Shown here in pieces: positions 57,144 to 57,959 of a stretch of 64,000 nucleotides of DNA (its first letter is position 1; each line of letters starts with the position of its first letter). The notes below the pieces were generated by a model. It was not told the DNA's origin and searched no databases. It was given only the letters and a program-made list of their open reading frames with translations. Both the position numbers and the translations under genes were made by a program. The stretch lies in NCBI RefSeq assembly GCF_054482595.1, contig NZ_CM137008.1; one strand, 5' to 3'.

Positions 57144-57959
57144 CTAAAGAGTGTAGCGGATTTTAACGTGCTTATTTACAGGATAATATCTGTCACCTAA
57201 TTCCTGCACTCTATTAGATATCCATTCATTTAATCGTGCATCATCTCTGTATGTTTTTACGTCCAGAACAGAGAGCAATAACATCACCAGTGATTCAGGA
57301 AAAACAGGGTAGATATTTTTTAAGTGTAATAATAATCCATGCGCAAGCGCCTGCTTAATGGGCGCGTCTGTCTCCGGAATAGACGACATTTCGCGAAGCC
57401 ATTTTTCCACATGCATACACTCTTTCCCTTTAGGGAAAAGTCTCAGCAAAGGCATATGGTGTTCAAGAAGAATACATTTGCAATCTGTTCGCACTGAATT
57501 GATAAACTGCACTAATTTCTTAAGCCCGGTAAAGCGTCCAGCCTGCACATTTGCTTTAATATCAAGAAACGCATCATCCTAGTCATATACCCAAACTGTC
57601 CCTTTTTGATTTTCAAGTATGCGAAAAACAAACTTAACCGGGTGATCAGGGTAATCCATCCAGTCATAAAATCCAGGGAAATCATTAAACTGCACATTTA
57701 TGGTGAGTGCGTTATCGTCTGACCACTCACAGTCTCGTACGGCAGCCATGAGATGAATGAGTTTGTCGTCATCGACTAAATCATCACGACAATCATAAGG
57801 ATAATCATAATATTGTTTAATCAAAACCTTGAATATATCGACACAGGAAACCAGGGAGCTTTTGATATCCTCTGGTAACTGATTGTTTTTAACCGTATTA
57901 AGTATGCTTTGTTGCGTATATGGCATCAAATTATTGTGCGGAGCTTTTAATGATATCAT
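57144..57959 (-). pseudogene. yahL: yahL interrupted by a single in-frame TAG stop
   Basis: Track ORFs 57579-57959 (126 aa) and 57144-57548 (134 aa) are in the same frame, separated only by an amber codon (plus-strand CTA at 57579-57581); 271 codons in total. Confidence 0.7.

What the first reader, a model, noticed from the sequence alone, without database searches (positions are those of the whole stretch)
57144..57959. yahL carries one in-frame amber codon
Two adjacent minus-strand ORFs share a frame and are separated only by TAG (plus CTA at 57579-57581). Read through, the region is 271 codons, the length I recall for intact YahL. A single point mutation (for example CAG to TAG) would explain it; sequencing error and amber suppression are alternatives.
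Basis: seen in the sequence. Interest (0 to 1): 0.35.

Follow-up and report, generated by a model that had tools for sequence, protein, structure and literature searches.

The report
yahL amber pseudogene at Dcm hotspot
The E. coli gene yahL (function unknown, dispensable) is cut short here by one C-to-T change that turns glutamine codon 127 into a stop; this is an ordinary, already annotated pseudogene, and the change lies at a classic methyl-cytosine mutation hotspot.

Summary
On the minus strand an ORF starts at ATG 57959, meets TAG at 57581-57579 (codon 127) and continues in frame to TAG 57146-57144, which is 271 codons plus the stop.

Intact yahL has CAG (Gln) at codon 127 in K-12, O55:H7 and three other intact alleles, including one about 9.5% divergent.

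- **Not a sequencing error.** RefSeq annotates the identical allele as "yahL, pseudogene, internal stop". It occurs in 25 of about 4,029 complete yahL-bearing genomes. The 126-aa fragment is indexed in 1,245 blocks of the assembly collection.
- **No supE.** The nearest genome, XH990 (3 SNPs in about 49 kb), has wild-type Gln tRNA anticodons.
- **Mechanism.** The ancestral context GAC-CAG-GAT holds a Dcm site (CCAGG), and the mutated base is its inner, methylated C. This matches the lacI amber hotspots of Coulondre and Miller.
- **Recurrence.** The same TAG sits on four yahL haplotypes. Three have a sister identical over 1,016 bp except for CAG at this site.
- **The gene.** yahL is AT-rich, has almost no homologues outside E. 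coli/Shigella, and is absent from about a quarter of strains.

Verdict: ordinary, already known, low interest.

The parts
57144..57959 (-). yahL pseudogene: 271 codons plus stop, interrupted by one in-frame amber codon
   Evidence: It is 100% identical to the XH990 locus BW242_RS20125, annotated 'protein YahL, pseudogene, internal stop'.
57579..57581 (-). Amber codon TAG at codon 127 (ancestral CAG, Gln127). The mutated base is window 57581, which is plus-strand A (ancestral G) and gene-strand T (ancestral C).
   Evidence: CAG in K-12, O55:H7, OkiPb01695, Z0117, O103 ML775, 07-4299 and FORC_069. TAG in the window and in 25 complete genomes.
57578..57582 (-). Former Dcm recognition site. The ancestral sequence is CCAGG (gene positions 378-382); the window reads CTAGG. 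The inner C, the base Dcm methylates, is the one mutated.
   Evidence: One search gives the context GACCAGGAT in intact alleles and GACTAGGAT in the window. The lacI amber hotspots at CCAGG are summarised in PMC12606429.
57582..57959 (-). The 126-codon N-terminal reading frame that can still be translated. It covers the N-terminal helices and four of the five predicted beta-strands.
   Evidence: This exact 126-aa product was called on 800 contigs.
57144..57578 (-). The untranslated C-terminal 144 codons plus stop. They cover the fifth predicted strand and the whole predicted helical bundle.
   Evidence: dN/dS of this half among intact alleles is 0.20, so it is constrained when the gene is intact. 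No Shine-Dalgarno-like sequence precedes the internal GTG at 57548 (read).
58202..59251 (-). yahK (NADPH-dependent aldehyde reductase), the upstream neighbour and synteny anchor
56486..56731 (-). yahM, the downstream neighbour and synteny anchor
   Evidence: (XH990 locus 7329-7574 mapped to the window)

Best explanation
The region is the E. coli gene yahL, inactivated by a single nonsense mutation.

**What happened (shown).** Codon 127 changed from CAG (Gln) to TAG by a C-to-T transition on the gene strand (window plus-strand 57581, G to A).

**Consequence (inferred).** Ribosomes should terminate at UAG-G and release a 126-residue fragment. That fragment lacks the last predicted beta-strand and the whole C-terminal helical half, so the allele is a pseudogene.

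**How it arose (inferred).** The mutated C is the inner cytosine of a Dcm site, CCAGG. Dcm methylates that base to 5-methylcytosine. Spontaneous deamination then gives thymine, and if the T:G mismatch escapes Vsr very-short-patch repair it is fixed as CTAGG. This is the mechanism behind the classical lacI amber hotspots. It explains why the same stop codon appears on several unrelated yahL haplotypes.

**Why it persists (inferred).** yahL is a dispensable, AT-rich gene with almost no homologues outside E. coli/Shigella, so the loss is tolerated and is inherited clonally.
For: **Shown**
- The stop codon and the shared frame.
- CAG in eight intact alleles against TAG here.
- RefSeq annotates the identical sequence as a pseudogene with 'internal stop' in XH990, O121 RM8352, FORC_042, TUM18780, A17, JNE132847 and DETEC-C31.
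- The exact 61-mer around TAG is in 25 listed genomes out of 4,029 that carry the site.
- The 126-aa product was seen on 800 contigs and the FORC_042-type fragment on 111. It is indexed in 1,245 blocks of the collection, mostly 10-20 kb draft contigs.
- The ancestral context is CCAGG with the inner C mutated. yahL has only three Dcm sites, and the inner C of a second one (position 106) is also C/T polymorphic.
- TAG lies on four haplotypes. Three have a sister allele identical over 1,016 bp except for C at position 379: O121 and O103 ML775, FORC_042 and 07-4299, A17 and FORC_069.
- dcm and vsr are intact in XH990, which differs from the window by 3 SNPs in about 49 kb plus one IS insertion. 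They are present in 5,358 of 5,426 genomes.
- Both halves of yahL are under purifying selection when intact (dN/dS 0.19-0.20).
- The AF2 model places residue 127 between strands 4 and 5.
- The gene is dispensable: about 1,400 of 5,426 genomes lack it. Nissle 1917 lacks exactly window 57131-57965.

**Established knowledge**
- lacI amber hotspots at the second C of CCAGG (Coulondre et al. 1978, as reviewed in PMC12606429).
- Vsr repair of these mismatches (PMC2715241).
Against: - Methylation of this particular site was not measured.
- The window haplotype has no exact CAG sister among complete genomes. The nearest CAG alleles carry one extra private change each.
- Between the flanking informative sites the TAG haplotypes are identical. 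Three short gene-conversion tracts (at most about 220-550 bp) from one original TAG allele could therefore mimic recurrence.
- A17 is a single genome.
- The AF2 model has only moderate confidence (pLDDT 66.8) and rests on a 5-sequence alignment.
- No expression or protein data were available, so the truncated product and the loss of function are inferred.
- Only the four tRNA-Gln genes of a proxy genome were checked for suppressors.
Confidence: 0.85

Rival explanations
1. Sequencing or assembly artefact. This includes the known tendency of nanopore basecallers to miscall methylated Dcm motifs, which could also fake 'recurrence' at a CCAGG site.
For: The site is a Dcm motif. Dcm motifs are a known source of systematic consensus errors in nanopore-only assemblies (own knowledge). 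A17 is a singleton.
Against: - The allele is distributed by clone, not sporadically. It is in all 8 O121-type genomes listed with the TAG 61-mer, which were deposited under separate accessions and strain names, and in 14 genomes of the window type from several countries and hosts.
- About 4,000 other genomes read CAG.
- The 126-aa product is indexed in 1,245 blocks of the collection, most with 10-20 kb draft contigs that are typical of short-read assemblies.
- The window's own genome is not in the complete-genome collection, so it is a further independent observation.
Confidence: 0.02
2. The nonsense mutation arose once. Homologous recombination in short tracts then moved it onto other yahL haplotypes, rather than it recurring at a hotspot.
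For: - All four combinations exist for sites 379 and 460 and for sites 239 and 379. That pattern needs either recombination or recurrent mutation.
- The TAG haplotypes are identical to the window type between their nearest informative markers, so short imports would be invisible.
- E. coli does recombine in short tracts (own knowledge).
Against: - Three separate imports would be needed, each confined to a tract of at most about 220-550 bp that carries no other marker.
- The donor allele is rare, at about 0.6% of genomes.
- The mutated base is exactly the one base class in E. coli known to be a spontaneous C-to-T hotspot.
- A second Dcm site in the same gene is also C/T polymorphic at its inner C.
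Confidence: 0.12
3. The amber codon is read through, by a supE-type suppressor tRNA or by programmed readthrough, so full-length YahL is still produced and the gene is functional.
For: - The downstream 144 codons are still intact and in frame.
- Low-level near-cognate readthrough of UAG by tRNA-Gln would restore the wild-type residue (own knowledge).
Against: - In XH990 the glnV/glnX-equivalent genes have the CTG anticodon and glnU/glnW have TTG.
- The window has no credible tRNA.
- TAG is a rare derived state in about 0.6% of genomes, not a conserved recoding site.
- The intact downstream frame is expected for a recent mutation. The window haplotype is only two differences (the TAG change plus one private change) from the nearest CAG alleles.
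- UAG followed by G is not a leaky context (own knowledge).
Confidence: 0.03
4. Loss of yahL is adaptive. The repeated appearance of the stop codon reflects positive selection for inactivation rather than a mutational hotspot alone.
For: - The stop recurs on several haplotypes and is carried by all 8 O121-type genomes listed.
- The gene is absent from about a quarter of genomes.
- IS3-family insertions lie immediately downstream in TUM18780 and DETEC-C31.
Against: - All recurrences are the same nucleotide change at the one hotspot-type site. Selection for loss should use many of the 131 possible one-step nonsense changes as well as frameshifts.
- The allele frequency is only about 0.6%.
- Intact alleles show purifying selection, with dN/dS about 0.2.
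Confidence: 0.05

Closest known systems
yahL (b0326) of E. coli K-12 and its RefSeq pseudogene alleles flagged 'internal stop'
   Same: The locus and the synteny (yahK-yahL-yahM-yahN) are the same, and so is the 816-nt length. It is 99.1% identical in nucleotides to K-12. The XH990 pseudogene BW242_RS20125 is 100% identical.
   Different: K-12 and about 99.4% of yahL-bearing genomes have CAG at codon 127 and encode the full 271-aa protein.
lacI amber hotspots at Dcm sites (Coulondre, Miller, Farabaugh and Gilbert 1978; amber sites A6, A15 and A34)
   Same: The motif is identical (CCAGG), the same base is mutated (the second, 5-methylated C), the change is the same (C to T, CAG to TAG amber), and the change recurs.
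   Different: The lacI hotspots were measured as mutation frequencies in laboratory K-12. Here recurrence is inferred from natural haplotypes, and neither methylation nor mutation rate was measured at this site.
supE44 (glnV amber suppressor) reading of UAG as Gln in K-12 laboratory strains
   Same: A supE tRNA would insert Gln at this UAG and restore wild-type YahL exactly.
   Different: The nearest genome has no CUA-anticodon tRNA-Gln. supE is a laboratory allele and is not expected in wild isolates (own knowledge).

Membership tests
yahL orthologue (E. coli b0326) | Full-length nucleotide and protein similarity to K-12 yahL | tested here: met
   7 differences in 816 nt from K-12, and 2 differences each from the O55:H7 and OkiPb01695 alleles
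yahL orthologue (E. coli b0326) | Conserved neighbourhood yahK-yahL-yahM-yahN-yahO-prpR | tested here: met
   Annotations of XH990 and K-12. The window is identical to XH990 over 51044-64000.
yahL orthologue (E. coli b0326) | Uninterrupted reading frame of 271 codons | tested here: not met
   TAG at codon 127, so it is filed as a pseudogene allele of yahL, not as a functional member
Dcm 5-methylcytosine deamination hotspot | The ancestral sequence is CCWGG and the mutated base is the inner C | tested here: met
   Intact alleles read GACCAGGAT and the window reads GACTAGGAT
Dcm 5-methylcytosine deamination hotspot | The change is a C-to-T transition | tested here: met
   Gene position 379, C to T
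Dcm 5-methylcytosine deamination hotspot | The lineage carries a dcm methyltransferase | tested here: met
   Intact dcm (1,419 nt) and vsr in the near-identical genome XH990. dcm-vsr is present in 5,358 of 5,426 genomes. The window's own genome could not be examined.
Dcm 5-methylcytosine deamination hotspot | The same change recurs independently | tested here: inconclusive
   TAG lies on four haplotypes, three with exact CAG sisters. Short-tract recombination is not excluded.
Dcm 5-methylcytosine deamination hotspot | The site is methylated in vivo and its mutation rate depends on dcm and vsr | not testable with these tools
   This needs methylation-aware sequencing and fluctuation or mutation-accumulation assays
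Suppressed or recoded amber codon | A tRNA with a CUA anticodon in the genome | tested here: not met
   In XH990 the tRNA-Gln anticodons are CTG, CTG, TTG and TTG. There is no credible tRNA in the window. Other tRNA genes of the genome were not scanned.
Suppressed or recoded amber codon | The stop codon is conserved among homologues | tested here: not met
   TAG is in 25 of about 4,029 genomes. The distant homologue P0049 has a sense codon there.

The most novel reading that the evidence does not exclude
The CCAGG/CTAGG site in yahL could act as a reversible mutational switch. 5-methylcytosine deamination would turn the gene off. Vsr-stimulated CTAGG-to-CCAGG conversion, mentioned in PMC2715241, would turn it back on. 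This orphan gene would then behave as a low-frequency contingency locus, and the repeated off-state in lineages such as O121:H19 would be selected.
Probability: 0.04. Interest if true: 0.45.

Novelty: already known. Interest (0 to 1): 0.12.

Why it matters
It matters little in itself. This is one more nonsense pseudogene in a dispensable gene of unknown function, and RefSeq already flags it.

Three small points have some value:

- **A natural example of a textbook hotspot.** Dcm-site 5-methylcytosine deamination has produced the same amber codon on several haplotypes. Homoplasy at CCWGG sites can mislead SNP-based phylogenies.
- **A caution for water testing.** yahL has been proposed as a universal E. 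coli/Shigella marker for water-quality qPCR (PMC11057252). Here about a quarter of complete genomes lack the gene altogether, which bears on that assay's sensitivity.
- **Annotation.** Pipelines will split this locus into two hypothetical ORFs unless the pseudogene is recognised.

Tried and rejected
- **Function of YahL.** Pfam gave only sub-threshold hits. NCBIfam and PADLOC gave none. An exhaustive phmmer search of 1.84 billion representatives found only YahL fragments and one real distant homologue, P0049. The AF2 model was of moderate confidence, and Foldseek against the PDB gave nothing meaningful, with best E-value 0.018 and TM-score at most 0.22. The function remains unknown.
- **Suppressor tRNA in the window.** ARAGORN calls one tRNA-Ser(GGA) at 56721-56801 on the minus strand. 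Rfam gives no tRNA hit there at gathering score or at E up to 10. I treat it as a false positive, and it is not an amber suppressor in any case.
- **Source genome.** The window's IS2-in-ehaB arrangement is in no complete genome of the collection, so XH990 served as a proxy.
- **Reinitiation after the stop.** No Shine-Dalgarno-like sequence precedes the in-frame GTG at 57548 (read). A two-gene reading was rejected because no homologue ends at codon 126.
- **Promoter and terminator scan of 56400-58300.** Nothing above the shuffled expectation.
- **More TAG haplotypes in draft assemblies.** The six sampled places added no new haplotype.
- **Literature.** Searches for yahL and xtpA found no functional study.

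Full report
**1. The observation**

On the minus strand an ORF begins at ATG 57959. It runs for 126 sense codons and meets TAG at 57581-57579. It then continues in the same frame for 144 sense codons to TAG at 57146-57144. The span is 816 nt, or 271 codons plus the stop. This is the length of K-12 yahL (b0326: 816 nt, 271 aa).

**2. Identity and ancestral state**

A megablast of the locus against 5,426 complete E. coli genomes finds it in 4,006 at full length, everywhere annotated yahL. The neighbourhood is yahK-yahL-yahM-yahN-yahO-prpR, as in K-12.

The window is nearly identical to strain XH990 (NZ_CP019359). There are no differences over 51044-64000. Over about 49 kb of aligned sequence in 1-50000 there are 3 SNPs and one 1.33-kb insertion.

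In XH990 the identical 816 nt are annotated "protein YahL, pseudogene, internal stop". The window was compared with K-12, O55:H7 RM12579, OkiPb01695 and the roughly 9.5% divergent Z0117EC0005 allele. Codon 127 is CAG (Gln) in every intact allele and TAG in the window, a single C-to-T change at gene position 379. On the window's plus strand this is A at 57581 where the ancestor had G.

**3. Is it real?**

The exact 61-mer centred on TAG is present in 25 listed complete genomes out of 4,029 that carry the site. All the others listed differ by one base. PGAP flags an internal stop in every TAG genome that I opened.

The 126-aa N-terminal product, as an exact sequence, was called on 800 contigs, and the variant from the FORC_042 haplotype on 111. 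The index lists it in 1,245 blocks of the collection, and most of those hold 10-20 kb draft contigs.

The window's own genome is not in the complete-genome collection, because its IS2 insertion in ehaB is matched nowhere. It is therefore one more independent observation.

A sequencing error can be set aside. That includes the nanopore miscalls known at Dcm motifs, because the allele follows clones rather than appearing sporadically.

**4. Suppression**

The window contains one ARAGORN call, tRNA-Ser(GGA) at 56721-56801 on the minus strand. Rfam finds no tRNA there, even at E up to 10.

In XH990 the metT-leuW-glnU-glnW-metU-glnV-glnX cluster has tRNA-Gln anticodons TTG, TTG, CTG and CTG. There is therefore no supE allele. 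Other tRNA genes were not scanned.

TAG is a rare derived state, in about 0.6% of yahL-bearing genomes. The only distant homologue, P0049, has a sense codon at the aligned position. Nothing suggests recoding.

**5. How the mutation arose**

In intact alleles the context is GAC-CAG-GAT, which contains CCAGG, a Dcm recognition site. The mutated base is its inner C, the base Dcm methylates.

Deamination of 5-methylcytosine gives thymine. This is the accepted basis of the lacI amber hotspots at CCAGG (Coulondre et al. 1978, reviewed in PMC12606429). Vsr repair normally counters it (PMC2715241).

XH990 has intact dcm and vsr, and 5,358 of 5,426 genomes carry them.

The prediction of recurrence is borne out. 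TAG sits on four different yahL haplotypes:

| Haplotype | Complete genomes | Difference from the window's yahL |
|---|---|---|
| Window type | 14 (one of them, TUM18530, was not opened and is assigned by inference) | none |
| O121:H19 type | 8 | 2 differences in the gene, 27 in the 1,151-bp upstream stretch (yahK 3' part plus the spacer) |
| FORC_042 / JNE132847 type | 2 | 8 differences |
| A17 | 1 | 4 differences |

For the last three types there are sister alleles identical over 1,016 bp except for C at position 379. These are O103 ML775, 07-4299 (with at least 12 other genomes showing the same single mismatch to FORC_042) and FORC_069 (with at least 13 such genomes, including O104:H4).

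yahL has only three Dcm sites. The inner C of another one, at position 106, is also C/T polymorphic.

The alternative is one origin followed by three short conversion tracts of at most about 220-550 bp. The sequences alone cannot exclude this. It is less parsimonious, because the donor allele is rare and the mutated base belongs to a known hotspot class.

**6. Consequences**

Intact yahL alleles show dN/dS of 0.19-0.20 in both halves against the divergent allele. The gene therefore encodes a real protein, and its C-terminal half matters.

An AlphaFold model built from five sequences has moderate confidence (pLDDT 66.8, pTM 0.66). It shows N-terminal helices, a five-stranded sheet (residues 74-139) and a C-terminal helical bundle (146-258). 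Residue 127 lies between strands 4 and 5. Truncation there should destroy the fold, but this is an inference.

No ribosome-binding sequence precedes the internal GTG at 57548, so I do not expect the downstream half to be made separately.

**7. What YahL is**

Its function is still unknown. Pfam, NCBIfam and PADLOC give nothing significant. Foldseek against the PDB gives nothing.

An exhaustive search of 1.84 billion cluster representatives returns only YahL fragments and one 26%-identical full-length relative. This agrees with the description of YahL as an E. coli/Shigella-restricted "signature protein" (PMC11057252).

The gene has 38.8% G+C against 52.7% for the window. About a quarter of complete genomes lack it. 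Nissle 1917 lacks exactly window 57131-57965, an 835-bp segment that is the gene with 6 and 13 flanking bases. It is plainly dispensable.

**8. Verdict**

The feature is an ordinary nonsense pseudogene that public annotation already records.

The added content is the mechanism, a Dcm-site 5-methylcytosine hotspot, and the recurrence it explains. Both are textbook in kind. Interest is low.

Noticed in passing
window 5291-6620 (minus-strand ORFs 5302..6207 and 6165..6575): A 1.33-kb insertion relative to XH990 splits the autotransporter adhesin gene ehaB into fragments 2622..5327 and 6619..6975. Its two ORFs look like IS2 InsC and InsD, recognised from memory and not tested against a family library. 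No complete E. coli genome in the collection has this arrangement.
   Followed up: partly
window 57131-57965: yahL is a discrete presence/absence polymorphism. Nissle 1917 lacks exactly this 835-bp segment while both flanks are conserved, and about 1,400 of 5,426 complete genomes lack the gene. This sits badly with its proposed use as a universal E. coli qPCR marker (PMC11057252). The gene has 38.8% G+C against 52.7% for the window.
   Followed up: partly
window 56721-56801 (-): ARAGORN calls a tRNA-Ser(GGA) that overlaps the start of yahM and the xtpA-equivalent ORF (56701..56883). Rfam gives no tRNA match even at E up to 10, so it is probably a false positive.
   Followed up: yes
window 57854 (gene position 106): A second Dcm site in yahL (CCTGG at gene positions 105-109) is C/T polymorphic at its inner C. 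The FORC_042 and 07-4299 haplotypes carry T (a synonymous CTG to TTG change). This is a second sign of 5-methylcytosine-driven transitions in this gene.
   Followed up: partly
window 22663-22841, 24870-25250, 47085-47724: Three tandem arrays of about 77-nt repeats match Rfam naRNA4 (REP/BIME-type repeats): 2, 4 and 7 copies, lying in intergenic regions of the XH990 annotation (fghA-yaiL, mhpT-mhpE and codB-prpE).
   Followed up: no
L008 2172-3061 and L011 2073-3061 (TUM18780 and DETEC-C31, downstream of yahL): Two genomes that carry the window-type TAG allele also have an IS3-family element inserted just downstream of yahL, at two different positions, where yahM lies in other strains. This is further decay of the locus.
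   Followed up: no
window 12298-20090, 32760-34509 and 59338-63771: Compared with K-12, this lineage carries extra genes in three places. The first is a two-component system plus a uhpC-like transporter and an iron-type ABC transporter, between tauA and frmR. The second is an MBL-fold hydrolase plus a GlxA-family regulator, between mhpR and lacI. The third is an AI-2-type sugar ABC transporter upstream of yahK, where K-12 has yahJ (XH990 annotation).
   Followed up: no
L020 (GCA_009799345.1, WTUQ01000002.1) 5001-5828: The only distant full-length YahL homologue (P0049, 275 aa, 26% identity) lies near a DUF2686 protein. YjfZ, another proposed E. coli 'signature protein', belongs to that family. 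An invasin/intimin-like gene is also nearby. The organism was not identified.
   Followed up: no
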